A stretch of DNA of 64,000 nucleotides from assembly GCA_009914755.4 (NCBI GenBank), contig CP086569.2:27840001-27904000 (forward strand), given 5' to 3'. The DNA is from the human T2T-CHM13v2.0 reference genome, Homo sapiens. Shown one piece after another: positions 684-44,318 of the stretch. The notes beneath the pieces are model-generated. The model ran no database searches. It saw only the letters and a program-made list of their open reading frames with translations, and had not been told where the DNA came from. Within the stretch, counting starts at the first letter, position 1; each line of letters opens with the position of its first letter. The position numbers and the translations under genes are program-made.

Positions 684-712
684 ATGGAATGGAATGGAAT
701 GGAATGGAATGG
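684..712 (+). repeat. Pure (GGAAT)n microsatellite-like tract inside the HOR (about 6 copies in unit 0). The equivalent tract in other units has 4-11 copies.
   Basis: Uninterrupted 'aatggaatggaatggaatggaatggaatgg'. The homologous tract at 8881-8930 is (tggaa)10. Confidence 0.8.
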
Positions 713-1058
713 AGTGGAATGGAATGGGATGGAATGGGATGGAATGGTATGGAACGGATAATAATGGTCTGGAGTGAAATGGACTGGAAAGGAATGGACT
801 CAAATTGAAAGGGCTCGAAAGGAATGGGGTCAAATGTAATGGTCTGGAATGGAATGAACTCGAATGTAATGCAATCCAATAGAATGGAATCGAATGGAAT
901 GGAATATAAAGAAATGGAATCGAAGAGAATGGAAACAAATGGAATGGAATTGTATGGAATTGAATTGAATCGAATCGAATGTAATTGAACGGAAAAAATG
1001 CAACTGAATAGAATCGAAAACAATGGATTCGACTGGCATCTAATAGAATGAAATGGAA

Positions 1059-1425
1059 TGCGTTGAGGTGGAGTGGATTGTAATGGAGTTGAATGGAATG
1101 GGGTGTAATTGAATTGAATGGGGTGGAGTGGAGTGAACTGGAGTGGAATGGAATGGAATGGGCAGGCATGGAATTGAAAGGCGTGGAGTGGAGTGGAATT
1201 GAGAGGAGTGGAATGGAGTAGGGTGGATTGTAGTGGAGAGTATTGGAAAAGAGTGGAGTGGAACGGAATGGAATGGAGTGGAGTGGAATGGAATGGAATT
1301 GAGTGAAGTGGAGTGGAGTGGAATGGAGAGTAATAGAGTGGAGTGGACTTGATTGGAGTAGATAGCAGTGCATTGGACTGTACGGGATAGAAGTGGCTTG
1401 GAGTGCCATGGAGTGGAGTGGAATG
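1059..1425 (+). repeat. GGAGT-rich subdomain of the HOR (~370 bp dominated by ggagtggagtg / gtggagtggaatgg variants). Recurs once per unit at the same offset.
   Basis: 'gcgttgaggtggagtggattgtaatggagttgaatgg...ggcgtggagtggagtggaattgagaggagtgg...gtggagtggagtggaatggactgg'. Homologous blocks lie at about 3790-4160, 6510-6900, 9260-9660, and so on. Confidence 0.75.
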
Positions 1426-16714: not shown

Positions 16715-19478
16715 ATGGAATGGAATGGAAAGGAATTGAATGGAATAGTTTCGATTAGAAGGGATTGGAATGCAATGGAATGGAAAGGACTCGAATTTCA
16801 TGAAACGGAATGGAATGAATTGGAATGGAATGGACTCGAATGGAATGGCATCAAATGGAATGGCATCAAATGGAATGGAATCGAATGCAATGGAATGTTA
16901 TGGAATGGAATGGAATGTATTGGAATGGAATGTCCTCTAATGGAATGGATTCGAGTGGAATGGAATCGAATACAATGGAGTCGAATGAAATGGAATTGAA
17001 AGGAATGGGATCGAATAGACTGGAATATACTGGAATGTAATGTAATGAAGTCGAATGTAATTGACTGGAATGGAATGTACATGAATGGAATGCAATCGAA
17101 TGAAATAGAATCTAATGCAATAAAACCGACTCAAATGGAATAGAATGTAATGGAATGGAGTGCAGTGCAATGGAATGGAATGGAATGGAATGGAATGGAA
17201 TGGAATGGAATGGAATGGTATGGAATGGAATGGGATGGAATGGGATGGAATGGTATGGAACGGATAATAATGGTCTGGAGTGAAATGGACTGGAAAGGAA
17301 TGGACTCAAATTGAAAGGGCTCGAAAGGAATGGGGTCAAATGTAATGGTCTGGAATGGAATGAACTCGAATGTAATGCAATCCAATAGAATGGAATCGAA
17401 TGGAATGGAATATAAAGAAATGGAATCGAAGAGAATGGAAACAAATGGAATGGAATTGTATGGAATTGAATCGAATCGAATCGAATGTAATTGAACGGAA
17501 AAAATGCAACTAAATAGAATCGAAAACAATGGATTCGACTGGCATCTAATAGAATGAAATGGAATGCGGTGAGGTGGAGTGGATTGTAATGGAGTTGAAT
17601 GGAATGGGTTGTAATTGAATTGAATGGAGTGGAGTGGAGTGAACTGGAGTGGAATGGAATGGAATGGGCAGGCATGGAATTGAAAGGCGTGGAGTGGATT
17701 GGAATTGAGAGGAGTGGAATGGAGTAGGGTGGATTGTAGTGGAGAGTATTGGAAAAGAGTGGAGTGGAACGGAATGGAATGGAGTGGAGTGGAATGGAAT
17801 GGAATTGAGTGAAGTGGAGTGGAGTGGAATGGAGAGTAATGGAGTGGAGTGGACTTGATTGGAGTAGATAGCAGTGCATTGGACTGTACGGGATAGAAGT
17901 GGCTTGGAGTGCCATGGAGTGGAGTGGAATGGAATGGAGTGGAGTGGAATGGATTGGAATGGACTGGAAAGGAATGGAATGGAATGGATTTAAATGGCAG
18001 GGAATCAAATCGAATTGAATCATATTGGAACAATTTGAATCGACTGGAGGAAAGAAATCGAATGAAATCGAATGGAATGAATGGAAGAGAGTGCAATGTT
18101 ATAGAATGGAATGGAGACAGATGGAATGGAATGGAACAGAGAGCAATGGTATAGAATGCAATGGAATCATATGAAATGGAATTGAGTGGAATGGAATAAT
18201 ATGAAATGGAATGGAATGGAATGCCCTTGCATTAAATGGACTGGAATGGAATGGACTCGAACAGAGTGGAATGGAAAGCATTGAAATAGAATGGAATGGA
18301 CTCCTTTGGAATGGTCTAGTATGGATGCAATCGACTGGCAGGGAATCAAAAGGAATGTAATCGAATAGATTGGACTGGAATACAATGGACTCGAATAGAT
18401 TGGAAACGGAATGCAATGGAATGGAATGGAATAGTATGGAATGGGATGGAATGAAATGGAGTGGAATAGACTAGAGTGGAATGGAATGGACTCGAAAGCA
18501 ATGGACTGGAATGGAACGGTCTTGAATGGACTGGAATCAAACGGAATGGAATGGAATGCAATGCAATCAAATGGAATGGAATAAAATAGAATGAAAGAGA
18601 ATGAAATGGAATTGAATCGAATGGAATCGAATGGATTGGAAAGGAATAGAATGGAATGGAATGGAATTGACTCAAATGGAATGGACTAGAATGGAATGGA
18701 GTCGAATGGAAGGCAAAGGAATGGAATCTATTGGAATGGACTGTAACGGAATGGAATGGAAGGGATTGGAATGGACTCGAATGGAATGAACTGCAATAGA
18801 AAGGATTCGAATGGAATGAAAAAGAATTGAATGGAATAGAAGAGAATGGAATCAAATCGAATGAAATGGAATGGAATAGAAAGGAATGGAATGAAATGGA
18901 ATGGAAAGGATTCGAATGGAATGCAATCGAATGGAATGGAATCGAACGGAATGGAATAAAATGGAGGCAAACTGGCAAGAAATGGAATCGAAATGAATGG
19001 AGTGTTATGGAACGGACTCCAAAGGAATTGAATGTAATAGAATGGAGTGGAGTGGACTCGAATATAATGGACTGGAATGGAATGGAATCACATGGAATGG
19101 GAACGAATGGAATGGAATGGAAAGGAATGGAATCGAATGGAAGGGAATGAAATTGAATCAACAGGAATGGAAGGGAATAGAATAGACTGTAATGGAATGG
19201 ACTCGAATAGAAAGGACACGAATGCTCAAATTGAATGGACTCGAATGGAATGGAAACGAAAGGAATGTCATCGAATGGAATTGAATCGATTGGAATGGAA
19301 TCGCATAGAATGGAGAGGAATGAAATGGAATTGAATCGAATGGAAAGGAACCGAATGGACTGAAATGAAATGGAATGGAATTGAATGGAAAGTAATGCAA
19401 TGCAATAGAATGGAACGAAATTTCACGGAATGGAATGAAACAGAATGGAATCAAATCAATGGAATATAATGAAATGGA
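16715..19478 (+). repeat. HOR unit 6 (2764 bp, C variant, lacks a 15-bp 'atgtcatggaatggc'-type segment)
   Basis: Anchor at 16715, next at 19479. Closely resembles unit 3 (offset 8290 bp, three units). Confidence 0.7.
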
Positions 19479-22231
19479 ATGGAATGGAATGGAAAGGAAT
19501 TGAATGGAATAGATTGGATTGGAAGGGATTGGAATGCAATGGAATGGAAAGGACTCGAATTTCATGAAACGGAATGGAATGAATTGGAATGGAATGGACT
19601 CGAATGGAATGGAATGTCATGGAATGGCATCAAATGGAATGGCATCAAATGGAATGGAATCGAATGCAATGGAATGTTATGGAATGGAATGGAATGTATT
19701 GGAATGGAATGTCCTCTAATGGAATGGATTCGAGTGGAATGGAATCGAATATAATGGAGTCGAATGAAATGGAATTGAAAGGACTGGGATCAAATAGAAT
19801 GGAATATACTGGAATGTAATGTAATGAAGTCGAATGTAATTGACTGGAATGGAATGTACATGAATGGAATGCAATCGAATGGAATAGAATCTAATGCAAT
19901 AAAACCGACTCAAATGGAATAGAATGTAATGGAATGGAGTGCAGTGCAATGGAATGGAATGGAATGGAATGGAATGGAATGGGATGGGATGGAATGGGAT
20001 GGAATGGTATGGAACGGATAATAATGGTCTGGAGGAAATGGACTGGAAAGGAATGGACTCAAATTGAAAGGGCTCGAAAGGAATGGGGTCAAATGTAATG
20101 GTCTGGAATGGAATGAACTCGAATGTAATGCAATCCAATAGAATGGAATCGAATGGAATGGAATATAAAGAAATGGAATCGAAGAGAATGGAAACAAATG
20201 GAATGGAATTGTATGGAATTGAATCGAATCGAATCGAATGTAATTGAACGGAAAAAATGCAACTGAATAGAATCGAAAACAATGGATTCGACTGGCATCT
20301 AATAGAATGAAATGGAATGCGGTGAGATGGAGTGGATTGTAATGGAGTTGAATGGAATGGGGTGTAATTGAATTGAATGGAGTGGAGTGGAGTGAACTGG
20401 AGTGGAATGGAATGGAATGGGCAGGCATGGAATTGAAAGGCGTGGAGTGGAGTGGAATTGAGAGGAGTGGAATGCAGTAGGGTGGATTGTAGTGGAGAGT
20501 ATTCGAAAAGAGTGGAGTGGAACGGAATGGAATGGAGTGGAGTGGAATGGAATGGAATTGAGTGAAGTGGAGTGGAGTGGAATGGAGAGTAATGGAGTGG
20601 AGTGGACTTGATTGGAGTAGATAGCAGTGCATTGGACTGTACGGGATAGAAGGGGCTTGGAGTGCCATGGAGTGGAGTGGAATGGAATGGAGTGGAGTGG
20701 AATGGATTGGAATGGACTGGAAAGGAATGGAATGGAATGGATTTAAATGGCAGGGAATCAAATCGAATTGAATCATATTGGAACAATTTGAATCGACTGG
20801 AGGAAAGAAATCGAATGAAATCGAATGGAATGAATGGAAGAGAGTGCAATGTTATAGAATGGAATGGAGACAGATGGAATGGAATGGAACAGAGAGCAAT
20901 GGTATAGAATGCAATGGAATCATATGAAATGGAATTGAGTGGAATGGAATAATATGAAATGGAATGGAATGGAATGCCCTTGCATTAAATGGACTGGAAT
21001 GGAATGGACTCGAACAGAGTGGAACGGAAAGCATTGAAATAGAATGGAATGGACTCCTTTGGAATGGTCTAGTATGGATGCAATCGACTGGCAGGGAATC
21101 AAAAGGAATGTAATCGAATAGATTGGACTGGAATACAATGGACTCGAATAGATTGGAAACGGAATGCAATGGAATGGAATGGAATAGTATGGAATGGGAT
21201 GGAATGAAATGGAGTGGAATAGACTAGAGTGGAATGGAATGGACTCGAAAGCAATGGACTGGAATGGAACGGTCTTGAATGGACTGGAATCAAACGGAAT
21301 GGAATGGAATGCAATGCAATCAAATGGAATGGAATAAAATAGAATGAAAGAGAATCAAATGGAATTGAATCGAATGGAATCGAATGGATTGGAAAGGAAT
21401 AGAATGGAATGGAATGGAATTGACTCAAATGGAATGGACTAGAATGGAATGGAGTCGAATGGAAGGCAAAGGAATGGAATCTATTGGAATGGACTGTAAT
21501 GGAATGGAATGGAAGGGATTGGAATGGACTCGAATGGAATGAACTGCAATAGAAAGGATTCGAATGGAATGAAAAAGAATTGAATGGAATAGAAGAGAAT
21601 GGAATCAAATCGAATGAAATGGAATGGAATAGAAAGGAATGGAATGAAATGGAATGGAAAGGATTCGAATGGAATGCAATCGAATGGAATGGAATCGAAC
21701 GGAATGGAATAAAATGGAAGCAAACTGGCAAGAAATGGAATCGAAATGAATGGAGTGTTATGGAACGGACTCCAAAGGAATTGAATGTAATAGAATGGAG
21801 TGGAGTGGACTCGAATATAATGGACTGGAATGGAATGGAATCACATGGAATGGGAACGAATGGAATGGAATGGAAAGGAATGGAATCGAATGGAAGGGAA
21901 TGAAATTGAATCAACAGGAATGGAAGGGAATAGAATAGACTGTAATGGAATGGACTCGAATAGAAAGGACACGAATGCTCAAATTGAATGGACTCGAATG
22001 GAATGGAAACGAATGGAATGTCATCGAATGGAATTGAATCGATTGGAATGGAATCGCATAGAATGGAGAGGAATGAAATGGAATTGAATCGAATGGAAAG
22101 GAACCGAATGGACTGAAATGAAATGGAATGGAATTGAATGGAAAGTAATGCAATGCAATAGAATGGAACGAAATTTCACGGAATGGAATGAAACAGAATG
22201 GAATGAAATCAATGGAATATAATGAAATGGA
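19479..22231 (+). repeat. HOR unit 7 (2753 bp, B variant, core)
   Basis: Anchor at 19479. The private variant 'gggatgggatggaatgggatgg...ggaggaaatgg' is shared with unit 12. Confidence 0.7.
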
Positions 22232-24995
22232 ATGGAATGGAATGGAAAGGAATTGAATGGAATAGATTGGATTGGAAGGGATTGGAATGCAATGGAATGG
22301 AAAGGAATCGAATTTCATGAAACGGAATGGAATGAATTGGAAAGGAATGGACTCGAATGGAATGGAATGTCATGGAATGGCATCAAATGGAATGGCATCA
22401 AATGGAATGGAATCGATTGCAATGGAATGTTATGGAATGGAATGGAATGTATTGGAATGGAATGTCCTCTAATGGAATGGATTCGAGTGGAATGGAATCG
22501 AATATAATGGAGTCGAATGAAATGGAATTGAAAGGAATGGGATCAAATAGAATGGAATATACTGGAATGTAATGTAATGAAGTCGAATGTAATTGACTGG
22601 AATGGAATGTACATGAATGGAATGCCATCGAATGGAATAGAATCTAATGCAATAAAACCGACTCAAATGGAATAGAATGTAATGGAATGGAGTGCAGTGC
22701 AATGGAATGGAATGCAATGGAATGGAATGGAATGGAATGGAATGGGATGGAATGGGATGGAATGGTATGGAACGGATAATAATGGTCTGGAGTGAAATGG
22801 ACTGGAAAGGAATGGACTCAAATTGAAAGGGCTCGAAAGGAATGGGGTCAAATGTAATGGTCTGGAATGGAATGAACTCGAATGTAATGCAATCCAATAG
22901 AATGGAATCGAATGGAATGGAATATAAATAAATGTAATCGAAGAGAATGGAAACAAATGGAATGGAATTGTATGGAATTGAATCGAATCGAATCGAATGT
23001 AATTGAACGGAAAAAATGCAACTGAATAGAATCGAAAACAATGGATTCGACTGGCATCTAATAGAATGAAATGGAATGCGGTGAGGTGGAGTGGATTGTA
23101 ATGGAGTTGAATGGAATGGGGTGTAATTGAATTGAATGGAGTGGAGTGGAGTGAACTGGAGTGGAATGGAATGGAATGGGCAGGCATGGAATTGAAAGGC
23201 GTGGAGTGGAGTGGAATTGAGAGGAGTGGAATGCAGTAGGGTGGATTGTAGTGGAGAGTATTCGAAAAGAGTGGAGTGGAACGGAATGGAATGGAGTGGA
23301 GTGGAATGGAATGGAATTGAGTGAAGTGGAGTGGAGTGGAATGGAGAGTAATGGAGTGGAGTGGACTTGATTGGAGTAGATAGCAGTGCATTGGACTGTA
23401 CGGGATAGAAGGGGCTTGGAGTTCCATGGAGTGGAGTGGAATGGAATGGAATGGAGTGGAATGGATTGGAATGGACTGGAAAGGAATGGAATGGAATGGA
23501 TTTAAATGGCAGGGAATCAAATCGAATTGAATCATATTGGAACAATTTGAATCGACTGGAGGAAAGAAATCGAATGAAATCGAATGGAATGAATGGAAGA
23601 GAGTGCAATGTTATAGAATGGAATGGAGACAGATGGAATGGAATGGAACAGAGAGCAATGGTATAGAATGCAATGGAATCATATGCAATGGAATTGAGTG
23701 GAATGGAATAATATGAAATGGAATGGAATGGAATGGAATGCCCTTGCATTAAATGGACTGGAATGGAATGGACTCGAACAGAGTGGAATGGAAAGCATTG
23801 AAATAGAATGGAATGGACTCCTTTGGAATGGTCTAGTATGGATGCAATCGACTGGCAGGGAATCAAAAGGAATGTAATCGAATAGATTGGACTGGAATAC
23901 AATGGACTCGAATAGATTGGAAACGGAATGCAATGGAATGGAATGGAATAGTATGGAATGGGATGGAATGAAATGGAGTGGAATAGACTAGAGTGGAATG
24001 GAATGGACTCGAAAGCAATGGACTGGAATGGAACGGTCTTGAATGGACTGGAATCAAACGGAATGGAATGGAATGCAATGCAATCAAATGGAATGGAATA
24101 AAATAGAATGAAAGAGAATGAAATGGAATTGAATCGAATGGAATCGAATGGATTGGAAAGGAATAGAATGGAATGGAATGGAATTGACTCAAATGGAATG
24201 GACTAGAATGGAATGGAGTCGAATGGAAGGCAAAGGAATGGAATCTATTGGAATGGACTGTAACGGAATGGAATGGAAGGGATTGGAATGGACTCGAATG
24301 GAATGAACTGCAATAGAAAGGATTCGAATGGAATGAAAAAGAATTGAATGGAATAGAAGAGAATGGAATCAAATCGAATGAAATGGAATGGAATAGAAAG
24401 GAATGGAATGAAATGGAATGGAAAGGATTCGAATGGAATGCAATCGAATGGAATGGAATCGAACGGAATGGAATAAAATGGAGGCAAACTGGCAAGAAAT
24501 GGAATCGAAATGAATGGAGTGTTATGGAACGGACTCCAAAGGAATTGAATGTAATAGAATGGAGTGGAGTGGACTCGAATATAATGGACTGGAATGGAAT
24601 GGAATCACATGGAATGGGAACGAATGGAATGGAATGGAAAGGAATGGAATCGAATGGAAGGGAATGAAATTGAATCAACAGGAATGGAAAGGAATAGAAT
24701 AGACTGTAATGGAATGGACTCGAATAGAAAGGACACGAATGCTCAAATTGAATGGACTCGAATGGAATGGAAACGAATGGAATGTCATCGAATGGAATTG
24801 AATCGATTGGAATGGAATCGCATAGAATGGAGAGGAATGAAATGGAATTGAATCGAATGGAAAGGAACCGAATGGACTGAAATGAAATGGAATGGAATTG
24901 AATGGAAAGTAATGCAATGCAATAGAATGGAACGAAATTTCACGGAATGGAATGAAACAGAATGGAATCAAATCAATGGAATATAATGAAATGGA
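22232..24995 (+). repeat. HOR unit 8 (2764 bp, A variant, core)
   Basis: Anchor at 22232. The private variant 'aatataaataaatgtaatcg' is shared with unit 13. Confidence 0.7.
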
Positions 24996-27753
24996 ATGGA
25001 ATGGAATGGAAAGGAATTGAATGGAATAGATTGGATTGGAAGGGATTGGAATGCAATGGAATGGAAAGGACTCGAATTTCATGAAACGGAATGGAATGAA
25101 TTGGAATGGAATGGACTCGAATGGAATGGAATGTCATGGAATGGCATCAAATGGAATGGCATCAAATGGAATGGAATCGAATGCAATGGAATGTTATGGA
25201 ATGGAATGGAATGTATTGGAATGGAATGTCCTCTAATGGAATGGATTCGAGTGGAATGGAATCGAATATAATGGAGTCGAATGAAATGGAATTGAAAGGA
25301 CTGGGATCAAATAGAATGGAATATACTGGAATGTAATGTAATGAAGTCGAATGTAATTGACTGGAATGGAATGTACATGAATGGAATGCAATCGAATGGA
25401 ATAGAATCTAATGCAATAAAACCGACTCAAATGGAATAGAATGTAATGGAATGGAGTGCAGTGCAATGGAATGGAATGGAATGGAATGGAATGGAATGGA
25501 ATGGGATGGAATGGGATGGAATGGTATGGAACGGATAATAATGGTCTGGAGGAAATGGACTGGAAAGGAATGGACTCAAATTGAAAGGGCTCGAAAGGAA
25601 TGGGGTCAAATGTAATGGTCTGGAATGGAATGAACTCGAATGTAATGCAATCCAATAGAATGGAATCGAATGGAATGGAATATAAAGAAATGGAATCGAA
25701 GAGAATGGAAACAAATGGAATGGAATTGTATGGAATTGAATCGAATCGAATCGAATGTAATTGAACGGAAAAAATGCAACTGAATAGAATCGAAAACAAT
25801 GGATTCGACTGGCATCTGATAGAATGAAATGGAATGCGGTGAGGTGGAGTGGATTGTAATGGAGTTGAATGGAATGGGGTGTAATTGAATTGAATGGAGT
25901 GGAGTGGAGTGAACTGGAGTGGAATGGAATGGAATGGGCAGGCATGGAATTGAAAGGCGTGGAGTGGAGTGGAATTGAGAGGAGTGGAATGCAGTAGGGT
26001 GGATTGTAGTGGAGAGTATTCGAAAAGAGTGGAGTGGAACGGAATGGAATGGAGTGGAGTGGAATGGAATGGAATTGAGTGAAGTGGAGTGGAGTGGAAT
26101 GGAGAGTAATGGAGTGGAGTGGACTTGATTGGAGTAGATAGCAGTGCATTGGACTGTACGGGATAGAAGGGGCTTGGAGTTCCATGGAGTGGAGTGGAAT
26201 GGAATGGAATGGAGTGGAATGGATTGGAATGGACTGGAAAGGAATGGAATGGAATGGATTTAAATGGCAGGGAATCAAATCGAATTGAATCATATTGGAA
26301 CAATTTGAATCGACTGGAGGAAAGAAATCGAATGAAATCGAATGGAATGAATGGAAGAGAGTGCAATGTTATAGAATGGAATGGAGACAGATGGAATGGA
26401 ATGGAACAGAGAGCAATGGTATAGAATGCAATGGAATCATATGAAATGGAATTGAGTGGAATGGAATAATATGAAATGGAATGGAATGGAATGGAATGCC
26501 CTTGCATTAAATGGACTGGAATGGAATGGACTCGAACAGAGTGGAATGGAAAGCATTGAAATAGAATGGAATGGACTCCTTTGGAATGGTCTAGTATGGA
26601 TGCAATCGACTGGCAGGGAATCAAAAGGAATGTAATCGAATAGATTGGACTGGAATACAATGGACTCGAATAGATTGGAAACGGAATGCAATGGAATGGA
26701 ATGGAATAGTATGGAATGGGATGGAATGAAATGGAGTGGAATAGACTAGAGTGGAATGGAATGGACTCGAAAGCAATGGACTGGAATGGAACGGTCTTGA
26801 ATGGACTGGAATCAAACGGAATGGAATGGAATGCAATGCAATCAAATGGAATGGAATAAAATAGAATGAAAGAGAATGAAATGGAATTGAATCGAATGGA
26901 ATCGAATGGATTGGAAAGGAATAGAATGGAATGGAATGGAATTGACTCAAATGGAATGGACTAGAATGGAATGGAGTCGAATGGAAGGCAAAGGAATGGA
27001 ATCTATTGGAATGGACTGTAACGGAATGGAATGGAAGGGATTGGAATGGACTCGAATGGAATGAACTGCAATAGAAAGGATTCGAATGGAATGAAAAAGA
27101 ATTGAATGGAATAGAAGAGAATGGAATCAAATCGAATGAAATGGAATGGAATAGAAAGGAATGGAATGAAATGGAATGGAAAGGATTCGAATGGAATGCA
27201 ATCGAATGGAATGGAATCGAACGGAATGGAATAAAATGGAGGCAAACTGGCAAGAAATGGAATCGAAATGAATGGAGTGTTATGGAACGGACTCCAAAGG
27301 AATTGAATGTAATAGAATGGAGTGGAGTGGACTCGAATATAATGGACTGGAATGGAATGGAATCACATGGAATGGGAACGAATGGAATGGAATGGAAAGG
27401 AATGGAATCGAATGGAAGGGAATGAAATTGAATCAACAGGAATGGAAGGGAATAGAATAGACTGTAATGGAATGGACTCGAATAGAAAGGACACGAATGC
27501 TCAAATTGAATGGACTCGAATGGAATGGAAACGAATGGAATGTCATCGAATGGAATTGAATCGATTGGAATGGAATCGCATAGAATGGAGAGGAATGAAA
27601 TGGAATTGAATCGAATGGAAAGGAACCGAATGGACTGAAATGAAATGGAATGTAATTGAATGGAAAGTAATGCAATGCAATAGAATGGAACGAAATTTCA
27701 CGGAATGGAATGAAACAGAATGGAATCAAATCAATGGAATATAATGAAATGGA
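24996..27753 (+). repeat. HOR unit 9 (2758 bp, B variant, core)
   Basis: Anchor at 24996. The private variant 'ggcatctgatag' is shared with unit 14. Confidence 0.7.
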
Positions 27754-33285: not shown

Positions 33286-36038
33286 ATGGAATGGAATGGA
33301 AAGGAATTGAATGGAATAGATTGGATTGGAAGGGATTGGAATGCAATGGAATGGAAAGGACTCGAATTTCATGAAACGGAATGGAATGAATTGGAATGGA
33401 ATGGACTCGAATGGAATGGAATGTCATGGAATGGCATCAAATGGAATGGCATCAAATGGAATGGAATCGAATGCAATGGAATGTTATGGAATGGAATGGA
33501 ATGTATTGGAATGGAATGTCCTCTAATGGAATGGATTCGAGTGGAATGGAATCGAATATAATGGAGTCGAATGAAATGGAATTGAAAGGACTGGGATCAA
33601 ATAGAATGGAATATACTGGAATGTAATGTAATGAAGTCGAATGTAATTGACTGGAATGGAATGTACATGAATGGAATGCAATCGAATGGAATAGAATCTA
33701 ATGCAATAAAACCGACTCAAATGGAATAGAATGTAATGGAATGGAGTGCAGTGCAATGGAATGGAATGGAATGGAATGGAATGGAATGGGATGGGATGGA
33801 ATGGGATGGAATGGTATGGAACGGATAATAATGGTCTGGAGGAAATGGACTGGAAAGGAATGGACTCAAATTGAAAGGGCTCGAAAGGAATGGGGTCAAA
33901 TGTAATGGTCTGGAATGGAATGAACTCGAATGTAATGCAATCCAATAGAATGGAATCGAATGGAATGGAATATAAAGAAATGGAATCGAAGAGAATGGAA
34001 ACAAATGGAATGGAATTGTATGGAATTGAATCGAATCGAATCGAATGTAATTGAACGGAAAAAATGCAACTGAATAGAATCGAAAACAATGGATTCGACT
34101 GGCATCTAATAGAATGAAATGGAATGCGGTGAGATGGAGTGGATTGTAATGGAGTTGAATGGAATGGGGTGTAATTGAATTGAATGGAGTGGAGTGGAGT
34201 GAACTGGAGTGGAATGGAATGGAATGGGCAGGCATGGAATTGAAAGGCGTGGAGTGGAGTGGAATTGAGAGGAGTGGAATGCAGTAGGGTGGATTGTAGT
34301 GGAGAGTATTCGAAAAGAGTGGAGTGGAACGGAATGGAATGGAGTGGAGTGGAATGGAATGGAATTGAGTGAAGTGGAGTGGAGTGGAATGGAGAGTAAT
34401 GGAGTGGAGTGGACTTGATTGGAGTAGATAGCAGTGCATTGGACTGTACGGGATAGAAGGGGCTTGGAGTGCCATGGAGTGGAGTGGAATGGAATGGAGT
34501 GGAGTGGAATGGATTGGAATGGACTGGAAAGGAATGGAATGGAATGGATTTAAATGGCAGGGAATCAAATCGAATTGAATCATATTGGAACAATTTGAAT
34601 CGACTGGAGGAAAGAAATCGAATGAAATCGAATGGAATGAATGGAAGAGAGTGCAATGTTATAGAATGGAATGGAGACAGATGGAATGGAATGGAACAGA
34701 GAGCAATGGTATAGAATGCAATGGAATCATATGAAATGGAATTGAGTGGAATGGAATAATATGAAATGGAATGGAATGGAATGCCCTTGCATTAAATGGA
34801 CTGGAATGGAATGGACTCGAACAGAGTGGAACGGAAAGCATTGAAATAGAATGGAATGGACTCCTTTGGAATGGTCTAGTATGGATGCAATCGACTGGCA
34901 GGGAATCAAAAGGAATGTAATCGAATAGATTGGACTGGAATACAATGGACTCGAATAGATTGGAAACGGAATGCAATGGAATGGAATGGAATAGTATGGA
35001 ATGGGATGGAATGAAATGGAGTGGAATAGACTAGAGTGGAATGGAATGGACTCGAAAGCAATGGACTGGAATGGAACGGTCTTGAATGGACTGGAATCAA
35101 ACGGAATGGAATGGAATGCAATGCAATCAAATGGAATGGAATAAAATAGAATGAAAGAGAATCAAATGGAATTGAATCGAATGGAATCGAATGGATTGGA
35201 AAGGAATAGAATGGAATGGAATGGAATTGACTCAAATGGAATGGACTAGAATGGAATGGAGTCGAATGGAAGGCAAAGGAATGGAATCTATTGGAATGGA
35301 CTGTAATGGAATGGAATGGAAGGGATTGGAATGGACTCGAATGGAATGAACTGCAATAGAAAGGATTCGAATGGAATGAAAAAGAATTGAATGGAATAGA
35401 AGAGAATGGAATCAAATCGAATGAAATGGAATGGAATAGAAAGGAATGGAATGAAATGGAATGGAAAGGATTCGAATGGAATGCAATCGAATGGAATGGA
35501 ATCGAACGGAATGGAATAAAATGGAAGCAAACTGGCAAGAAATGGAATCGAAATGAATGGAGTGTTATGGAACGGACTCCAAAGGAATTGAATGTAATAG
35601 AATGGAGTGGAGTGGACTCGAATATAATGGACTGGAATGGAATGGAATCACATGGAATGGGAACGAATGGAATGGAATGGAAAGGAATGGAATCGAATGG
35701 AAGGGAATGAAATTGAATCAACAGGAATGGAAGGGAATAGAATAGACTGTAATGGAATGGACTCGAATAGAAAGGACACGAATGCTCAAATTGAATGGAC
35801 TCGAATGGAATGGAAACGAATGGAATGTCATCGAATGGAATTGAATCGATTGGAATGGAATCGCATAGAATGGAGAGGAATGAAATGGAATTGAATCGAA
35901 TGGAAAGGAACCGAATGGACTGAAATGAAATGGAATGGAATTGAATGGAAAGTAATGCAATGCAATAGAATGGAACGAAATTTCACGGAATGGAATGAAA
36001 CAGAATGGAATGAAATCAATGGAATATAATGAAATGGA
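33286..36038 (+). repeat. HOR unit 12 (2753 bp, B variant, near-identical to unit 7)
   Basis: Anchor at 33286. The translated six-frame strings over this unit are identical to those of unit 7. Confidence 0.7.
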
Positions 36039-38802
36039 ATGGAATGGAATGGAAAGGAATTGAATGGAATAGATTGGATTGGAAGGGATTGGAATGCAAT
36101 GGAATGGAAAGGAATCGAATTTCATGAAACGGAATGGAATGAATTGGAAAGGAATGGACTCGAATGGAATGGAATGTCATGGAATGGCATCAAATGGAAT
36201 GGCATCAAATGGAATGGAATCGATTGCAATGGAATGTTATGGAATGGAATGGAATGTATTGGAATGGAATGTCCTCTAATGGAATGGATTCGAGTGGAAT
36301 GGAATCGAATATAATGGAGTCGAATGAAATGGAATTGAAAGGAATGGGATCAAATAGAATGGAATATACTGGAATGTAATGTAATGAAGTCGAATGTAAT
36401 TGACTGGAATGGAATGTACATGAATGGAATGCCATCGAATGGAATAGAATCTAATGCAATAAAACCGACTCAAATGGAATAGAATGTAATGGAATGGAGT
36501 GCAGTGCAATGGAATGGAATGCAATGGAATGGAATGGAATGGAATGGAATGGGATGGAATGGGATGGAATGGTATGGAACGGATAATAATGGTCTGGAGT
36601 GAAATGGACTGGAAAGGAATGGACTCAAATTGAAAGGGCTCGAAAGGAATGGGGTCAAATGTAATGGTCTGGAATGGAATGAACTCGAATGTAATGCAAT
36701 CCAATAGAATGGAATCGAATGGAATGGAATATAAATAAATGTAATCGAAGAGAATGGAAACAAATGGAATGGAATTGTATGGAATTGAATCGAATCGAAT
36801 CGAATGTAATTGAACGGAAAAAATGCAACTGAATAGAATCGAAAACAATGGATTCGACTGGCATCTAATAGAATGAAATGGAATGCGGTGAGGTGGAGTG
36901 GATTGTAATGGAGTTGAATGGAATGGGGTGTAATTGAATTGAATGGAGTGGAGTGGAGTGAACTGGAGTGGAATGGAATGGAATGGGCAGGCATGGAATT
37001 GAAAGGCGTGGAGTGGAGTGGAATTGAGAGGAGTGGAATGCAGTAGGGTGGATTGTAGTGGAGAGTATTCGAAAAGAGTGGAGTGGAACGGAATGGAATG
37101 GAGTGGAGTGGAATGGAATGGAATTGAGTGAAGTGGAGTGGAGTGGAATGGAGAGTAATGGAGTGGAGTGGACTTGATTGGAGTAGATAGCAGTGCATTG
37201 GACTGTACGGGATAGAAGGGGCTTGGAGTTCCATGGAGTGGAGTGGAATGGAATGGAATGGAGTGGAATGGATTGGAATGGACTGGAAAGGAATGGAATG
37301 GAATGGATTTAAATGGCAGGGAATCAAATCGAATTGAATCATATTGGAACAATTTGAATCGACTGGAGGAAAGAAATCGAATGAAATCGAATGGAATGAA
37401 TGGAAGAGAGTGCAATGTTATAGAATGGAATGGAGACAGATGGAATGGAATGGAACAGAGAGCAATGGTATAGAATGCAATGGAATCATATGCAATGGAA
37501 TTGAGTGGAATGGAATAATATGAAATGGAATGGAATGGAATGGAATGCCCTTGCATTAAATGGACTGGAATGGAATGGACTCGAACAGAGTGGAATGGAA
37601 AGCATTGAAATAGAATGGAATGGACTCCTTTGGAATGGTCTAGTATGGATGCAATCGACTGGCAGGGAATCAAAAGGAATGTAATCGAATAGATTGGACT
37701 GGAATACAATGGACTCGAATAGATTGGAAACGGAATGCAATGGAATGGAATGGAATAGTATGGAATGGGATGGAATGAAATGGAGTGGAATAGACTAGAG
37801 TGGAATGGAATGGACTCGAAAGCAATGGACTGGAATGGAACGGTCTTGAATGGACTGGAATCAAACGGAATGGAATGGAATGCAATGCAATCAAATGGAA
37901 TGGAATAAAATAGAATGAAAGAGAATGAAATGGAATTGAATCGAATGGAATCGAATGGATTGGAAAGGAATAGAATGGAATGGAATGGAATTGACTCAAA
38001 TGGAATGGACTAGAATGGAATGGAGTCGAATGGAAGGCAAAGGAATGGAATCTATTGGAATGGACTGTAACGGAATGGAATGGAAGGGATTGGAATGGAC
38101 TCGAATGGAATGAACTGCAATAGAAAGGATTCGAATGGAATGAAAAAGAATTGAATGGAATAGAAGAGAATGGAATCAAATCGAATGAAATGGAATGGAA
38201 TAGAAAGGAATGGAATGAAATGGAATGGAAAGGATTCGAATGGAATGCAATCGAATGGAATGGAATCGAACGGAATGGAATAAAATGGAGGCAAACTGGC
38301 AAGAAATGGAATCGAAATGAATGGAGTGTTATGGAACGGACTCCAAAGGAATTGAATGTAATAGAATGGAGTGGAGTGGACTCGAATATAATGGACTGGA
38401 ATGGAATGGAATCACATGGAATGGGAACGAATGGAATGGAATGGAAAGGAATGGAATCGAATGGAAGGGAATGAAATTGAATCAACAGGAATGGAAAGGA
38501 ATAGAATAGACTGTAATGGAATGGACTCGAATAGAAAGGACACGAATGCTCAAATTGAATGGACTCGAATGGAATGGAAACGAATGGAATGTCATCGAAT
38601 GGAATTGAATCGATTGGAATGGAATCGCATAGAATGGAGAGGAATGAAATGGAATTGAATCGAATGGAAAGGAACCGAATGGACTGAAATGAAATGGAAT
38701 GGAATTGAATGGAAAGTAATGCAATGCAATAGAATGGAACGAAATTTCACGGAGTGGAATGAAACAGAATGGAATCAAATCAATGGAATATAATGAAATG
38801 GA
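36039..38802 (+). repeat. HOR unit 13 (2764 bp, A variant, near-identical to unit 8)
   Basis: Anchor at 36039. The 1434-bp stretch 36276-37709 translates identically to 22469-23902. Confidence 0.7.
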
Positions 38803-41560
38803 ATGGAATGGAATGGAAAGGAATTGAATGGAATAGATTGGATTGGAAGGGATTGGAATGCAATGGAATGGAAAGGACTCGAATTTCATGAAACGGAATG
38901 GAATGAATTGGAATGGAATGGACTCGAATGGAATGGAATGTCATGGAATGGCATCAAATGGAATGGCATCAAATGGAATGGAATCGAATGCAATGGAATG
39001 TTATGGAATGGAATGGAATGTATTGGAATGGAATGTCCTCTAATGGAATGGATTCGAGTGGAATGGAATCGAATATAATGGAGTCGAATGAAATGGAATT
39101 GAAAGGACTGGGATCAAATAGAATGGAATATACTGGAATGTAATGTAATGAAGTCGAATGTAATTGACTGGAATGGAATGTACATGAATGGAATGCAATC
39201 GAATGGAATAGAATCTAATGCAATAAAACCGACTCAAATGGAATAGAATGTAATGGAATGGAGTGCAGTGCAATGGAATGGAATGGAATGGAATGGAATG
39301 GAATGGAATGGGATGGAATGGGATGGAATGGTATGGAACGGATAATAATGGTCTGGAGGAAATGGACTGGAAAGGAATGGACTCAAATTGAAAGGGCTCG
39401 AAAGGAATGGGGTCAAATGTAATGGTCTGGAATGGAATGAACTCGAATGTAATGCAATCCAATAGAATGGAATCGAATGGAATGGAATATAAAGAAATGG
39501 AATCGAAGAGAATGGAAACAAATGGAATGGAATTGTATGGAATTGAATCGAATCGAATCGAATGTAATTGAACGGAAAAAATGCAACTGAATAGAATCGA
39601 AAACAATGGATTCGACTGGCATCTGATAGAATGAAATGGAATGCGGTGAGGTGGAGTGGATTGTAATGGAGTTGAATGGAATGGGGTGTAATTGAATTGA
39701 ATGGAGTGGAGTGGAGTGAACTGGAGTGGAATGGAATGGAATGGGCAGGCATGGAATTGAAAGGCGTGGAGTGGAGTGGAATTGAGAGGAGTGGAATGCA
39801 GTAGGGTGGATTGTAGTGGAGAGTATTCGAAAAGAGTGGAGTGGAACGGAATGGAATGGAGTGGAGTGGAATGGAATGGAATTGAGTGAAGTGGAGTGGA
39901 GTGGAATGGAGAGTAATGGAGTGGAGTGGACTTGATTGGAGTAGATAGCAGTGCATTGGACTGTACGGGATAGAAGGGGCTTGGAGTTCCATGGAGTGGA
40001 GTGGAATGGAATGGAATGGAGTGGAATGGATTGGAATGGACTGGAAAGGAATGGAATGGAATGGATTTAAATGGCAGGGAATCAAATCGAATTGAATCAT
40101 ATTGGAACAATTTGAATCGACTGGAGGAAAGAAATCGAATGAAATCGAATGGAATGAATGGAAGAGAGTGCAATGTTATAGAATGGAATGGAGACAGATG
40201 GAATGGAATGGAACAGAGAGCAATGGTATAGAATGCAATGGAATCATATGAAATGGAATTGAGTGGAATGGAATAATATGAAATGGAATGGAATGGAATG
40301 GAATGCCCTTGCATTAAATGGACTGGAATGGAATGGACTCGAACAGAGTGGAATGGAAAGCATTGAAATAGAATGGAATGGACTCCTTTGGAATGGTCTA
40401 GTATGGATGCAATCGACTGGCAGGGAATCAAAAGGAATGTAATCGAATAGATTGGACTGGAATACAATGGACTCGAATAGATTGGAAACGGAATGCAATG
40501 GAATGGAATGGAATAGTATGGAATGGGATGGAATGAAATGGAGTGGAATAGACTAGAGTGGAATGGAATGGACTCGAAAGCAATGGACTGGAATGGAACG
40601 GTCTTGAATGGACTGGAATCAAACGGAATGGAATGGAATGCAATGCAATCAAATGGAATGGAATAAAATAGAATGAAAGAGAATGAAATGGAATTGAATC
40701 GAATGGAATCGAATGGATTGGAAAGGAATAGAATGGAATGGAATGGAATTGACTCAAATGGAATGGACTAGAATGGAATGGAGTCGAATGGAAGGCAAAG
40801 GAATGGAATCTATTGGAATGGACTGTAACGGAATGGAATGGAAGGGATTGGAATGGACTCGAATGGAATGAACTGCAATAGAAAGGATTCGAATGGAATG
40901 AAAAAGAATTGAATGGAATAGAAGAGAATGGAATCAAATCGAATGAAATGGAATGGAATAGAAAGGAATGGAATGAAATGGAATGGAAAGGATTCGAATG
41001 GAATGCAATCGAATGGAATGGAATCGAACGGAATGGAATAAAATGGAGGCAAACTGGCAAGAAATGGAATCGAAATGAATGGAGTGTTATGGAACGGACT
41101 CCAAAGGAATTGAATGTAATAGAATGGAGTGGAGTGGACTCGAATATAATGGACTGGAATGGAATGGAATCACATGGAATGGGAACGAATGGAATGGAAT
41201 GGAAAGGAATGGAATCGAATGGAAGGGAATGAAATTGAATCAACAGGAATGGAAGGGAATAGAATAGACTGTAATGGAATGGACTCGAATAGAAAGGACA
41301 CGAATGCTCAAATTGAATGGACTCGAATGGAATGGAAACGAATGGAATGTCATCGAATGGAATTGAATCGATTGGAATGGAATCGCATAGAATGGAGAGG
41401 AATGAAATGGAATTGAATCGAATGGAAAGGAACCGAATGGACTGAAATGAAATGGAATGTAATTGAATGGAAAGTAATGCAATGCAATAGAATGGAACGA
41501 AATTTCACGGAATGGAATGAAACAGAATGGAATCAAATCAATGGAATATAATGAAATGGA
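38803..41560 (+). repeat. HOR unit 14 (2758 bp, B variant, near-identical to unit 9)
   Basis: Anchor at 38803. Shares the 'catctgatag' variant. Confidence 0.7.
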
Positions 41561-44318
41561 ATGGAATGGAATGGAAAGGAATTGAATGGAATAGATTGGA
41601 TTGGAAGGGATTGGAATGCAATGGAATGGAAAGGACTCGAATTTCATGAAACGGAATGGAATGAATTGGAATGGAATGGACTCGAATGGAATGGAATGTC
41701 ATGGAATGGCATCAAATGGAATGGCATCAAATGGAATGGAATCGAATGCAATGGAATGTTATGGAATGGAATGGAATGTATTGGAATGGAATGTCCTCTA
41801 ATGGAATGGATTCGAGTGGAATGGAATCGAATATAATGGAGTCGAATGAAATGGAATTGAAAGGACTGGGATCAAATAGAATGGAATATACTGGAATGTA
41901 ATGTAATGAAGTCGAATGTAATTGACTGGAATGGAATGTACATGAATGGAATGCAATCGAATGGAATAGAATCTAATGCAATAAAACCGACTCAAATGGA
42001 ATAGAATGTAATGGAATGGAGTGCAGTGCAATGGAATGGAATGGAATGGAATGGAATGGAATGGAATGGGATGGAATGGGATGGAATGGTATGGAACGGA
42101 TAATAATGGTCTGGAGGAAATGGACTGGAAAGGAATGGACTCAAATTGAAAGGGATCGAAAGGAATGGGGTCAAATGTAATGGTCTGGAATGGAATGAAC
42201 TCGAATGTAATGCAATCCAATAGAATGGAATCGAATGGAATGGAATATAAAGAAATGGAATCGAAGAGAATGGAAACAAATGGAATGGAATTGTATGGAA
42301 TTGAATCGAATCGAATCGAATGTAATTGAACGGAAAAAATGCAACTGAATAGAATCGAAAACAATGGATTCGACTGGCATCTAATAGAATGAAATGGAAT
42401 GCGGTGAGATGGAGTGGATTGTAATGGAGTTGAATGGAATGGGGTGTAATTGAATTGAATGGAGTGGAGTGGAGTGAACTGGAGTGGAATGGAATGGAAT
42501 GGGCAGGCATGGAATTGAAAGGCGTGGAGTGGAGTGGAATTGAGAGGAGTGGAATGCAGTAGGGTGGATTGTATTGGAGAGTATTCGAAAAGAGTGGAGT
42601 GGAACGGAATGGAATGGAGTGGAGTGGAATGGAATGGAATTGAGTGAAGTGGAGTGGAGTGGAATGGAGAGTAATGGAGTGGAGTGGACTTGATTGGAGT
42701 AGATAGCAGTGTATTGGACTGTACGGGATAGAAGGGGCTTGGAGTTCCATGGAGTGGAGTGGAATGGAATGGAATGGAGTGGAATGGATTGGAATGGACT
42801 GGAAAGGAATGGAATGGAATGGATTTAAATGGCAGGGAATCAAATCGAATTGAATCATATTGGAACAATTTGAATCGACTGGAGGAAAGAAATCGAATGA
42901 AATCGAATGGAATGAATGGAAGAGAGTGCAATGTTATAGAATGGAATGGAGACAGATGGAATGGAATGGAACAGAGAGCAATGGTATAGAATGCAATGGA
43001 ATCATATGAAATGGAATTGAGTGGAATGGAATAATATGAAATGGAATGGAATGGAATGGAATGCCCTTGCATTAAATGGACTGGAATGGAATGGACTCGA
43101 ACAGAGTGGAATGGAAAGCATTGAAATAGAATGGAATGGACTCCTTTGGAATGGTCTAGTATGGATGCAATCGACTGGCAGGGAATCAAAAGGAATGTAA
43201 TCGAATAGATTGGACTGGAATACAATGGACTCGAATAGATTGGAAACGGAATACAATGGAATGGAATGGAATAGTTTGGAATGGGATGGAATGAAATGGA
43301 GTGGAATAGACTAGAGTGGAATGGAATGGACTCGAAAGCAATGGACTGGAATGGAACGGTCTTGAATGGACTGGAATCAAACGGAATGGAATGGAATGCA
43401 ATGCAATCAAATGGAATGGAATAAAATAGAATGAAAGAGAATGAAATGGAATTGAATCGAATGGAATCGAATGGATTGGAAAGGAATAGAATGGAATGGA
43501 ATGGAATTGACTCAAATGGAATGGACTAGAATGGAATGGAGTCGAATGGAAGGCAAAGGAATGGAATCTATTGGAATGGACTGTAACGGAATGGAATGGA
43601 AGGGATTGGAATGAACTCGAATGGAATGAACTGCAATAGAAAGGATTCGAATGGAATGAAAAAGAATTGAATGGAATAGAAGAGAATGGAATCAAATCGA
43701 ATGAAATGGAATGGAATAGAAAGGAATGGAATGAAATGGAATGGAAAGGATTCGAATGGAATGCAATCGAATGGAATGGAATCGAACGGAATGGAATAAA
43801 ATGGAGGCAAACTGGCAAGAAATGGAATCGAAATGAATGGAGTGTTATGGAACGGACTCCAAAGGAATTGAATGTAATAGAATGGAGTGGAGTGGACTCG
43901 AATATAATGGACTGGAATGGAATGGAATCACATGGAATGGGAACGAATGGAACGGAATGGAAAGGAATGGAATCGAATGGAAGGGAATGAAATTGAATCA
44001 ACAGGAATGGAAGGGAATAGAATAGACTGTAATGGAATGGACTCGAATAGAAAGGACACGAATGCTCAAATTGAATGGACTCGAATGGAATGGAAACGAA
44101 TGGAATGTCATCGAATGGAATTGAATCGATTGGAATGGAATCGCATAGAATGGAGAGGAATGAAATGGAATTGAATCGAATGGAAAGGAACCGAATGGAC
44201 TGAAATGAAATGGAATGGAATTGAATGGAAAGTAATGCAATGCAATAGAATGGAACGAAATTTCACGGAATGGAATGAAACAGAATGGAATCAAATCAAT
44301 GGAATATAATGAAATGGA
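41561..44318 (+). repeat. HOR unit 15 (2758 bp, B variant, near-identical to unit 10)
   Basis: Anchor at 41561. Shares the 'gggatcgaaagg' and 'ggaacggaatggaaagg' variants. Confidence 0.7.

What the first reader, a model, noticed from the sequence alone, without database searches (positions are those of the whole stretch)
18300..44200. ~12 kb multi-unit block duplicated at an exact 13,807-bp offset (units 7-10 vs units 12-15)
Sequence from about 18.3-30.4 kb reappears at about 32.1-44.2 kb. Private single-base variants are conserved and all at the same 13,807-bp offset (five HOR units). 'gggatgggatggaatgggatgg' occurs at 19981 and 33788. 'aatataaataaatgtaatcg' occurs at 22921 and 36728. 'ggcatctgat' occurs at 25811 and 39618. 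'gggatcgaaagg' occurs in units 10 and 15. The 477-aa frame strings at 22469-23902 and 36276-37709 are identical. The copies diverge at the next unit head (30512 A-type vs 44319 B-type) and upstream near 18.1-18.35 kb / 31.9-32.15 kb. This is the signature of a very recent unequal-exchange or segmental expansion inside the array: a transient 5-unit 'super-HOR'.
Basis: seen in the sequence. Interest (0 to 1): 0.55.

Follow-up and report, generated by a model that had tools for sequence, protein, structure and literature searches.

The report
Recent 12-kb copy inside satellite array
A 12.4-kb stretch of a pentamer-derived (GGAAT) satellite array really is present twice with only two base differences, and its edges suggest a recent copy-and-paste repair event between neighbouring repeat units, which is an ordinary way for satellite DNA to evolve.

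Summary
Bases 18205-30586 equal 32012-44393 at a fixed 13,807-bp offset, with two substitutions in 12,382 bp (99.98%). Repeat units elsewhere in the window are about 97-98% alike, and the next-longest exact repeat is 2.2 kb.

The whole window is one uninterrupted, single-strand (GGAAT)n-derived satellite of the human satellite 3 (HSat3) type. It is built of about 2.76-kb units, which are "nested tandem repeats" rather than alpha-satellite-style higher-order repeats (HORs).

The identical block is 4.49 units while the offset is 5.00 units, and one unequal crossover would give 13.8 kb of identity. The 1.4-kb spacer (30587-32011) differs from its counterpart by 11 substitutions and 2 indels, mostly old shared variants. 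There is no third copy.

Diagnostic sites show type-B sequence on both flanks of copy 1. Joined, those flanks form a coherent B unit. Copy 2 sits in continuous type-A sequence. The best reading is that copy 2 was the template and that out-of-register homologous repair pasted 4.49 units into the adjacent upstream unit, a net gain of 4 units (11,033 bp).

This is a known kind of process and of low interest. Assembly error, species and HSat3 subfamily could not be tested.

The parts
1..64000 (+). Uninterrupted (GGAAT)n-derived satellite array in one orientation. It holds 23 phase anchors, i.e. 22 complete units of about 2.76 kb (2723-2779 bp). The consensus unit is 2,764 bp.
   Evidence: TRF reports period 5, consensus GAATG, over 8-63961. 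Self-BLAST gives 97-98% identity at multiples of about 2.76 kb. There are 3,880 GGAAT and 0 ATTCC on the plus strand.
18205..30586 (+). Copy 1 of the near-identical block (12,382 bp): tail of unit u7, then u8, u9, u10, then head and middle of u11. Inferred to be the newly synthesised, pasted copy.
   Evidence: Two substitutions against copy 2. Both flanks are type B while the block ends are type A.
32012..44393 (+). Copy 2 of the block: tail of u12, then u13, u14, u15, then head and middle of u16. Inferred to be the template, in its native context.
   Evidence: Identical to copy 1 at offset 13,807. Units u12 and u16 are type A at every diagnostic site, on both sides of the block edges.
17247..18204 (+). 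Left flank of copy 1 (head of u7). It is type B at the diagnostic sites: columns 664 and 692, and the 5-bp pentamer-run deletion at columns 958-962. The left breakpoint lies in 17978-18204, equivalent to 31780-32011.
   Evidence: The nearest heads are u4 and u8.
30587..31048 (+). Right flank of copy 1 (tail of u11). It is type B: 1 difference from the u4 tail and 3 from the u8 tail. Its counterpart 44394-44840 (u16 tail) is identical to the type-A tails. The right breakpoint lies in 30147-30586, equivalent to 43954-44393.
31049..32011 (+). Head of u12, type A. It is the native sequence between the pasted copy and its template. Together with 30587-31048 it forms the 1,425-bp spacer that makes the offset 5.0 units.
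   Evidence: It differs from the u17 head by 5 substitutions and 1 indel, including private variants 31422A, 31536G and 45502T.
24947..24947 (+). Substitution 1: A in copy 1, G at 38754 in copy 2. The G is private to u14, so it is derived in copy 2.
30023..30023 (+). Substitution 2: C in copy 1, G at 43830 in copy 2. All 21 other units have G, so the C is derived in copy 1.

Best explanation
The window is a pericentromere-type satellite built from degenerate GGAAT pentamers, organised in about 2.76-kb nested tandem repeats.

Within it, one recent non-reciprocal homologous-repair event copied 4.49 units. The template ran from position ~963 of unit u12 to position ~1900-2300 of unit u16 (32012-44393). 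The copy went into the unit lying immediately upstream.

That recipient was a single type-B unit. Its head survives as 17247-18204 and its tail as 30587-31048. Its middle, about 1,349 bp, was replaced by 12,382 bp of new sequence. The array therefore grew by four units (11,033 bp).

The most likely route has three steps:
1. A break or gap formed in the recipient unit.
2. One end invaded the sister chromatid (or the same array) one unit out of register.
3. DNA synthesis ran through four and a half units, and the new strand re-annealed to the other broken end.

This is synthesis-dependent strand annealing (SDSA) or gap repair; template switching at a replication fork would give the same product.

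Shown: the identity, the block edges, and the flank types. Inferred: the direction of copying, the net gain of four units, and the enzymology.
For: 1. **Identity.** 12,382 bp at 99.98% against a 97-98% background, with exact matches of 6.7 and 5.1 kb versus 2.2 kb or less elsewhere.
2. **Block shorter than the offset.** The block is 4.49 units and the offset 5.00 units. The 1.2 kb in between differs by 11 substitutions and 2 indels, so one crossover cannot explain the structure.
3. **Diagnostic sites.** At sites fixed between A-type units (u9, u10, u17) and B-type units (u4, u8):
   - u7 is B up to column 962 and A afterwards.
   - u11 is A up to column 1505 and B from column 2327.
   - u12 and u16 are A throughout.
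   - The type switches therefore coincide with both edges of copy 1 and with neither edge of copy 2.
4. **The two flanks of copy 1 form one coherent B unit.** Joined, they show 10 differences from u4 and 11 from u8, which is closer than u4 is to u8 (15), and 21-29 from all other units.
5. **Private mutations.** Each copy carries one derived substitution of its own, as expected for two real paralogous copies.
6. **Precedent.** SDSA between misaligned sister chromatids is an established proposal for gains and internal rearrangements in tandem arrays.
   - PMC2599865 proposes it for a human minisatellite.
   - Paques, Leung and Haber 1998 appears in the reference list seen; its content is cited from my own knowledge.
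   - Hyper-local expansion of nested tandem repeats in HSat2/3 arrays is reported in bioRxiv 10.1101/2021.07.12.452052.
Against: - The pre-event allele is not available, so neither the direction nor the net gain is observed directly.
- A-versus-B diagnostic sites are sparse. None lies between columns 963 and 1505, and only one (column 1505) lies between 963 and 2327. The coincidence of type switch and block edge is therefore resolved only to about 0.4-0.8 kb. I estimate roughly 4-10:1 in favour of copy 1 as recipient, not more.
- One shared variant of u7/u12 (A at column 2034, 19261/33068) is the allele of the outer, older units. It fits u7's older-looking head, which is a weak hint for the opposite direction.
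- A tract of 12.4 kb is long for non-crossover repair.
- The 5-bp difference at the left edge lies in a slippage-prone (GGAAT)3-4 run, so it is a weak marker.
Confidence: 0.5

Rival explanations
1. Classical unequal crossover (sister chromatid or homologue) made a perfect 5-unit, 13,807-bp tandem duplication (about 18205-32011 and 32012-45818). A second event, a gene-conversion patch of about 1.2 kb near the junction, then changed 30587-31779 or 44394-45570.
For: - The offset is exactly five units.
- After the divergent 1.2 kb, identity resumes: 31780-33067 equals 45571-46858 exactly.
- Unequal exchange is the textbook mechanism and is invoked for HSat3 on Yq12 (bioRxiv 10.1101/2022.12.01.518724).
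Against: - It needs two events.
- The resumed identity is not specific. The same 1,288 bp also matches u10 and u15 exactly (26248-27535 and 40055-41342), and is near-identical in the other type-A units.
- The patch contains private variants (31422A, 31536G, 45502T) with no donor in the window. Two or three new mutations in 731 bp at the block's rate have P = 0.006 to 0.00025.
- u7's switch from B to A would coincide with the junction by chance, and so would the fit of u7 head plus u11 tail to a single B unit.
Confidence: 0.2
2. Long-tract gene conversion or a double exchange at a 5-unit offset, with no change in unit number. About 12.4 kb of pre-existing units at 18.2-30.6 kb (or at 32.0-44.4 kb) was overwritten by the copy.
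For: It gives exactly the observed end product: a block shorter than the offset and a haplotype switch at both edges.
Against: - It requires both the first and the last overwritten unit to have been the minority B type. B type otherwise appears only in u4 and u8/u13.
- It does not predict that the two surviving ends fit together as one unit closer to u4 and u8 than those are to each other.
- The present sequence alone cannot separate this from the best explanation.
Confidence: 0.17
3. Assembly artefact: a false duplication, or mis-threading of reads, within a highly similar satellite array.
For: Satellite arrays are error-prone to assemble. Near-perfect identity is what a false duplication would show. 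No read data are available here.
Against: - The copies differ at two sites, one derived in each copy.
- The block edges coincide with changes of unit haplotype rather than arbitrary points.
- 12.4 kb is within the span of current long reads (my own knowledge).
- The four flanks are all distinct, so the structure can be threaded uniquely.
Confidence: 0.06
4. The duplicated block is kept because it carries a functional element, such as the long ORFs or a structured RNA.
For: ORFs of up to 477 aa recur in the block.
Against: - All 94 ORFs of 130 aa or more lie on the CATTC strand and recur once per unit along the array.
- An ATTCC repeat has no stop codon in any frame, which follows directly from the sequence.
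- The two ORF products looked up are not on record in the gene collection.
- No Rfam family matches.
Confidence: 0.01

Closest known systems
Human satellite 3 (HSat3) arrays organised as multi-kilobase nested tandem repeats, e.g. DYZ1 / HSat3A6 with a ~3.6-kb unit
   Same: - Derived from a (CATTC)n / (GGAAT)n pentamer.
- Multi-kb unit repeated head to tail at high identity.
- Local, recent expansions within arrays are reported.
   Different: - The unit here is 2.76 kb.
- None of the 14 published most-common subfamily-specific 24-mers occurs exactly, including the one for HSat3A6.
- Species and chromosome are unknown.
Alpha-satellite higher-order repeat arrays and their local duplications or layered expansions
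   Same: A homogenised core flanked by more divergent units. Recent duplications inside arrays are described for chrX.
   Different: There are no discrete ~171-bp monomers. The unit is not an integer number of equal monomers, so the terms "HOR" and "super-HOR" do not apply.
Tandem-repeat gain by double-strand-break repair through synthesis-dependent strand annealing (yeast tandem repeats; human minisatellites MS32, CEB1, MSY1)
   Same: Non-reciprocal copying from a misaligned sister chromatid. The template is left unchanged, whole units are gained, and the recipient's flanks are retained (Paques et al. 1998 from the reference list, content from my own knowledge).
   Different: The scale differs. 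Units here are 2.76 kb and the tract 12.4 kb, against units of tens to hundreds of bp. The mechanism here is inferred from one product, not observed.
Unequal sister-chromatid exchange / unequal crossing over in satellite DNA (Smith 1976 model; my own knowledge)
   Same: Out-of-register pairing of repeat units and a change in copy number. This is the standard explanation of array homogenisation.
   Different: It predicts identity over the full offset (13.8 kb). The observed identity is 12.4-12.6 kb, followed by an old, divergent 1.2 kb.

Membership tests
HSat3-type classical satellite | Built from diverged copies of the pentamer CATTC / GAATG | tested here: met
   TRF finds period 5, consensus GAATG, 12,798 copies, 64% matches. 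30% of bases lie in exact GGAAT.
HSat3-type classical satellite | Single-pentamer periodicity, without the 23/26-bp (two decamers plus trimers) periodicity of HSat2 (criterion from bioRxiv 10.64898/2026.01.27.702063) | tested here: met
   Self-identity is 0.63-0.67 at offsets 5 to 30 in steps of 5, but 0.15 at offset 23 and 0.31 at offset 26. The three HSat2 subfamily 24-mers have no hit even with 2 mismatches.
HSat3-type classical satellite | Carries 24-mers specific to one of the 11 human HSat3 subfamilies (Altemose 2014, Table 1) | tested here: inconclusive
   There are 0 exact hits for all 14 listed 24-mers, and only one 1-mismatch hit (HSat3A4). The 2-mismatch hits are to near-pure pentamer 24-mers. 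Only the single commonest 24-mer per subfamily was available, so absence does not exclude membership.
HSat3-type classical satellite | Human or hominoid origin, pericentromeric or Yq location | not testable with these tools
   No eukaryotic reference was available. One metagenome contig (L004, OONO01001428.1) is 97.9% identical over 1.9 kb, so the satellite occurs in public assemblies. There were no hits in bacterial or archaeal genome contigs.
Nested tandem repeat (NTR) | Multi-kb unit repeated in tandem, itself made of short diverged repeats rather than a fixed number of equal monomers | tested here: met
   22 complete units of 2723-2779 bp at 97-98% identity.
Alpha-satellite-style HOR / super-HOR | A discrete number of similar-length monomers per unit; for a super-HOR, a periodic repeat of the multi-unit block | tested here: not met
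   There is no monomer level between 5 bp and 2.76 kb. Only two copies of the block exist, with no match at a 10-unit offset.
Simple tandem duplication by a single unequal crossover | Near-identity over the entire length of the offset (13,807 bp) | tested here: not met
   Identity covers 12,382-12,609 bp. The stretch 30587-31779 differs by 11 substitutions and 2 indels, P about 3e-16 at the block's rate.
Non-reciprocal out-of-register repair (SDSA / gap repair) | Template context unchanged; the recipient keeps its own flanks, with haplotype switches at both tract ends | tested here: met
   u12 and u16 are type A throughout. u7 and u11 switch between B and A at the block edges. The flanks of copy 1 join into a coherent B unit.
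Non-reciprocal out-of-register repair (SDSA / gap repair) | A pre-event allele four units shorter with an intact recipient unit | not testable with these tools
   This needs other haplotypes of the same array.

The most novel reading that the evidence does not exclude
The breakpoint anatomy has three parts: a block of 4.49 units at a 5.00-unit offset, both recipient flanks fitting one former unit, and an untouched template. Together these would be base-level evidence that kilobase-unit satellite arrays grow by non-crossover, out-of-register repair synthesis from the adjacent units, rather than by the classical unequal crossover. A systematic scan of complete assemblies for blocks shorter than their offset could then measure the relative contribution of the two mechanisms.
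Probability: 0.45. Interest if true: 0.3.

Novelty: new member of a known kind. Interest (0 to 1): 0.17.

Why it matters
Local duplications are how satellite arrays homogenise and change size, and they are also where assemblies are most likely to be wrong. This instance is ordinary in kind. It is well resolved, though, and it shows that comparing block length with offset, and looking at flank haplotypes, can separate a crossover duplication from copy-and-paste repair. The two private substitutions and the distinct flanks give concrete markers for validating the assembly with long reads. They would also help find the pre-event allele in other genomes.

Tried and rejected
1. **Origin via public collections.**
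   - The metagenome scan with a unit-specific 30-mer found 4 contigs. Only L004 is the same satellite (97.9%). L001 and L003 are 91-93% relatives and L002 is 79%. None has non-satellite flanks.
   - Two scans of bacterial/archaeal genome contigs found nothing.
2. **HSat subfamily from the 14 published 24-mers.** No exact hit.
3. **Literature search for a 2.7-2.8-kb HSat period.** Nothing found.
4. **Function.**
   - Rfam at gathering thresholds gave no match.
   - Exact-product look-up of two ORFs found nothing on record.
   - I ran no further search on pentamer-artefact ORFs.
5. **Direction of copying.** My first guess was copy 1 as donor. It rested on one ancestral-type site (column 2034) and on u11/u18 similarity. 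I abandoned it when:
   - the full set of A/B diagnostic sites showed the type switches at the edges of copy 1 only;
   - the u18 tail proved to be 9 differences from the u11 tail.
6. **Simple 5-unit tandem duplication as the sole event.** Rejected on block length and on the content of the spacer.
7. **Paques et al. 1998 (PMC121435).** Could not be read.
Full report
**What the window is.**
- All 64 kb is a single satellite array. Tandem Repeats Finder reports one array, 8-63961, with period 5 and consensus GAATG.
- Base composition is A 39%, G 32%, T 21.5%, C 7%, with constant skew along the window.
- GGAAT occurs 3,880 times on the plus strand and ATTCC never, so the window contains no inversion.
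- Self-alignment shows a second level of repetition. The window aligns to itself at 97.1-98.2% identity at each of the 11 offsets found, spaced about 2.76 kb apart.
- A 200-bp anchor recurs 23 times, at spacings of 2723-2779 bp. I number the 22 complete anchor-to-anchor units u1 to u22; for example u7 is 17247-20000 and u12 is 31049-33807.
- The consensus unit is 2,764 bp of degenerate pentamers with a GGAGT-rich stretch at about 330-700.

**What family it belongs to.**
- Self-identity peaks only at multiples of 5 bp. It is low at 23 and 26 bp, the HSat2 periodicity (criterion). The satellite is therefore HSat3-like rather than HSat2-like.
- None of the 14 published subfamily-marker 24-mers of human HSat2/3 occurs exactly. 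I found no report of a 2.7-2.8-kb HSat period. Subfamily, chromosome and species stay unassigned.
- A metagenome contig (L004) is 97.9% identical over 1.9 kb, so the same satellite exists in public data.
- The T2T centromere paper calls such multi-kb units of HSat2/3 "nested tandem repeats", to distinguish them from HORs. It notes that they can expand "hyper-locally".

**The observation.** It is correct.
- At offset 13,807 the window is identical from 18205 to 30586 except at 24947 (A, versus G at 38754) and 30023 (C, versus G at 43830).
- Exact matches of 6,742 and 5,075 bp result. The longest exact repeat outside this pair is 2,168 bp.
- In a multiple alignment of the 22 units, u8/u13, u9/u14 and u10/u15 differ by 0, 1 and 0 columns. 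The next-closest pair differs by 4 and the typical pair by 20-120.
- The ORFs carry no information. All 94 ORFs of 130 aa or more lie on the CATTC strand and recur once per unit, because that pentamer has no stop codon in any frame. The two I looked up are not on record as genes, and Rfam finds nothing.

**Where the copies stop.**
- *Left edge.* In a gapped alignment the last substitution difference is 17977/31779. There is also a 5-bp run-length difference, (GGAAT)3 versus (GGAAT)4, at 18205/32007-32011.
- *Right edge.* The last variant private to both copies is at 30146/43953, and the first difference is 30587/44394.
- *Beyond the right edge.* The sequences differ by 6 substitutions and a 15-bp indel up to the unit end. 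They then differ by a 1-bp indel and 5 substitutions up to 31779/45570.
- At the block's own divergence (2 in 12,382 bp), 11 substitutions in 1,193 bp has P of about 3e-16.
- Most of these differences are alleles shared with other units, that is, old haplotypes. Three are private (31422A, 31536G, 45502T).

**Why this is not a plain 5-unit tandem duplication.**
- One unequal crossover joins A[..x] to A[x-L..]. It therefore makes two adjacent copies that are identical over the whole offset L. This follows from the geometry of the exchange.
- Here L is 13,807 bp (5.00 units), but the identical block is 12,382-12,609 bp (4.49-4.57 units).
- The missing part is old sequence.
- The exact identity that resumes at 31780-33067 = 45571-46858 is not specific. 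The same 1,288 bp is also found exactly in u10 and u15, and is near-identical in the other type-A units.
- There is no third copy. No other unit pair at a 5-unit offset is unusually similar. "Super-HOR" does not describe the structure.

**Which copy is the original.**
- I took sites fixed for one allele in the independent type-A units (u9, u10, u17) and for another in the type-B units (u4, u8). There are 21 such alignment columns, counting each base of two 5-bp indels separately.
- u12 and u16, the units that hold the ends of copy 2, are type A at every site, on both sides of the block edges.
- u7 is type B at columns 664, 692 and 958-962, and type A from column 1505 on.
- u11 is type A up to column 1505 and type B from column 2327 (base 30587) on.
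- The haplotype therefore switches at both edges of copy 1 and at neither edge of copy 2.
- The two type-B pieces flanking copy 1 (17247-18204 and 30587-31048) behave as the two ends of one unit. Joined, they differ from u4 by 10 events and from u8 by 11. That is less than u4 differs from u8 over the same columns (15), and well below the 21-29 to every other unit.

**Proposed history.**
- The simplest history is that a single B-type unit lay directly upstream of u12.
- Its middle 1,349 bp was replaced by a 12,382-bp copy of the sequence that starts one unit downstream.
- The net gain is four units (11,033 bp).
- The final 5.00-unit offset is the 4.49-unit copy plus the 0.17-unit B tail plus the 0.35-unit u12 head.

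**Mechanism (inferred).**
- Such a product is what synthesis-dependent strand annealing or gap repair yields when a broken end invades a misaligned repeat: copying is non-reciprocal, the template is untouched, and whole units are gained.
- This was shown for yeast tandem repeats (Paques, Leung and Haber 1998; reference seen, content from my own knowledge).
- It is proposed for human minisatellites, between sister chromatids misaligned by one or two repeats (PMC2599865).
- Fork template switching would give the same product.
- I cannot separate this from an in-register 12.4-kb conversion with no length change. I also cannot fully exclude the opposite direction. A/B diagnostic sites are sparse near the edges, which gives perhaps 4-10:1 for the direction, and one site (column 2034) points weakly the other way.

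**Age.**
- Each copy has one derived private substitution: 30023C in copy 1 and 38754G in copy 2.
- Divergence is 1.6e-4. That is 10-20 times less than among the next most similar units (4-9 differences per 2.76 kb) and about 100 times less than the array average.
- If the host is a hominid with about 1.2e-8 substitutions per bp per generation (my own knowledge), the age is of the order of 7,000 generations. The Poisson range is roughly 800-24,000. This is an inference, not a measurement.
- Repair synthesis is itself mutagenic (abstracts of PMC3039667 and PMC12891019). The change in copy 1 could therefore date from the event itself.

**Assembly error.**
- This cannot be tested without reads.
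- Against it: there are two differences, one derived in each copy; the edges coincide with haplotype switches; and all four flanks are distinct.
- I put it at about 6%.

**Verdict.**
- The finding is real and clearly above chance.
It is wrong about the unit count, the term HOR, and the implied simple unequal exchange.
- The phenomenon, local duplication and homogenisation within HSat-type arrays, is well known.
- The only mildly interesting point is that the breakpoints favour copy-and-paste repair with a gain of four units over a crossover. Interest is low.

Noticed in passing
window 14480-17246 (unit u6): An outlier unit inside the otherwise homogenised centre. It differs from every other unit by 76-144 alignment columns and is nearest to u18 (76), u19 (77) and u3 (80). 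It has a 15-bp deletion and a 20-bp longer terminal pentamer run. It looks like an old unit that escaped homogenisation, and it lies just upstream of the recipient unit of the duplication.
   Followed up: partly
window 8947-50371 versus 741-8946 and 50372-61425: Identity shows a gradient. Apart from u6, units u4-u18 differ from each other by at most 54 alignment columns, and u9, u10, u12, u14, u15 and u17 by only 0-9. The outer units u1-u3 and u19-u22 differ from these central units by 51-124 columns. The core has been homogenised locally and recently.
   Followed up: partly
window 39987-42154 = 45503-47670 (also 26180-28347): This is the second-longest exact repeat, 2,168 bp at a 2-unit offset. 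u10/u15 differ from u17 by only 4 columns. It is probably an older copying event involving the same units, at a 2-unit offset.
   Followed up: no
window, minus strand, whole length: All 94 ORFs of 130 aa or more are on the minus (CATTC) strand and recur with the 2.76-kb period, for example 271-aa and 475-aa ORFs in most units. They are an artefact of a pentamer without stop codons. The two products looked up are not on record in the gene collection.
   Followed up: yes
consensus unit positions ~330-700, e.g. window 20330-20700; locus L001 1-3637: Each unit contains a GGAGT-rich sub-block. Metagenome contig L001 (OJKS01000405.1) consists of repeated modules, GGAGT-rich alternating with ATCGAAT-rich. 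It matches the window only over 868 bp, at 92%. It appears to be a related but differently organised satellite.
   Followed up: no
whole window: None of the 14 most-common subfamily-specific 24-mers published for human HSat2/3 occurs exactly, and the TCGGGTTG/CAACCCGA motif is absent. The array may belong to a human subfamily variant poorly represented by those markers, or to another species.
   Followed up: partly
window 741-6197 (units u1, u2): The first two units are shorter (2734 and 2723 bp) and form their own close pair, differing by 34 columns while being 69-124 from all other units. Unit length varies mainly through the copy number of the terminal (GGAAT)n run.
   Followed up: no
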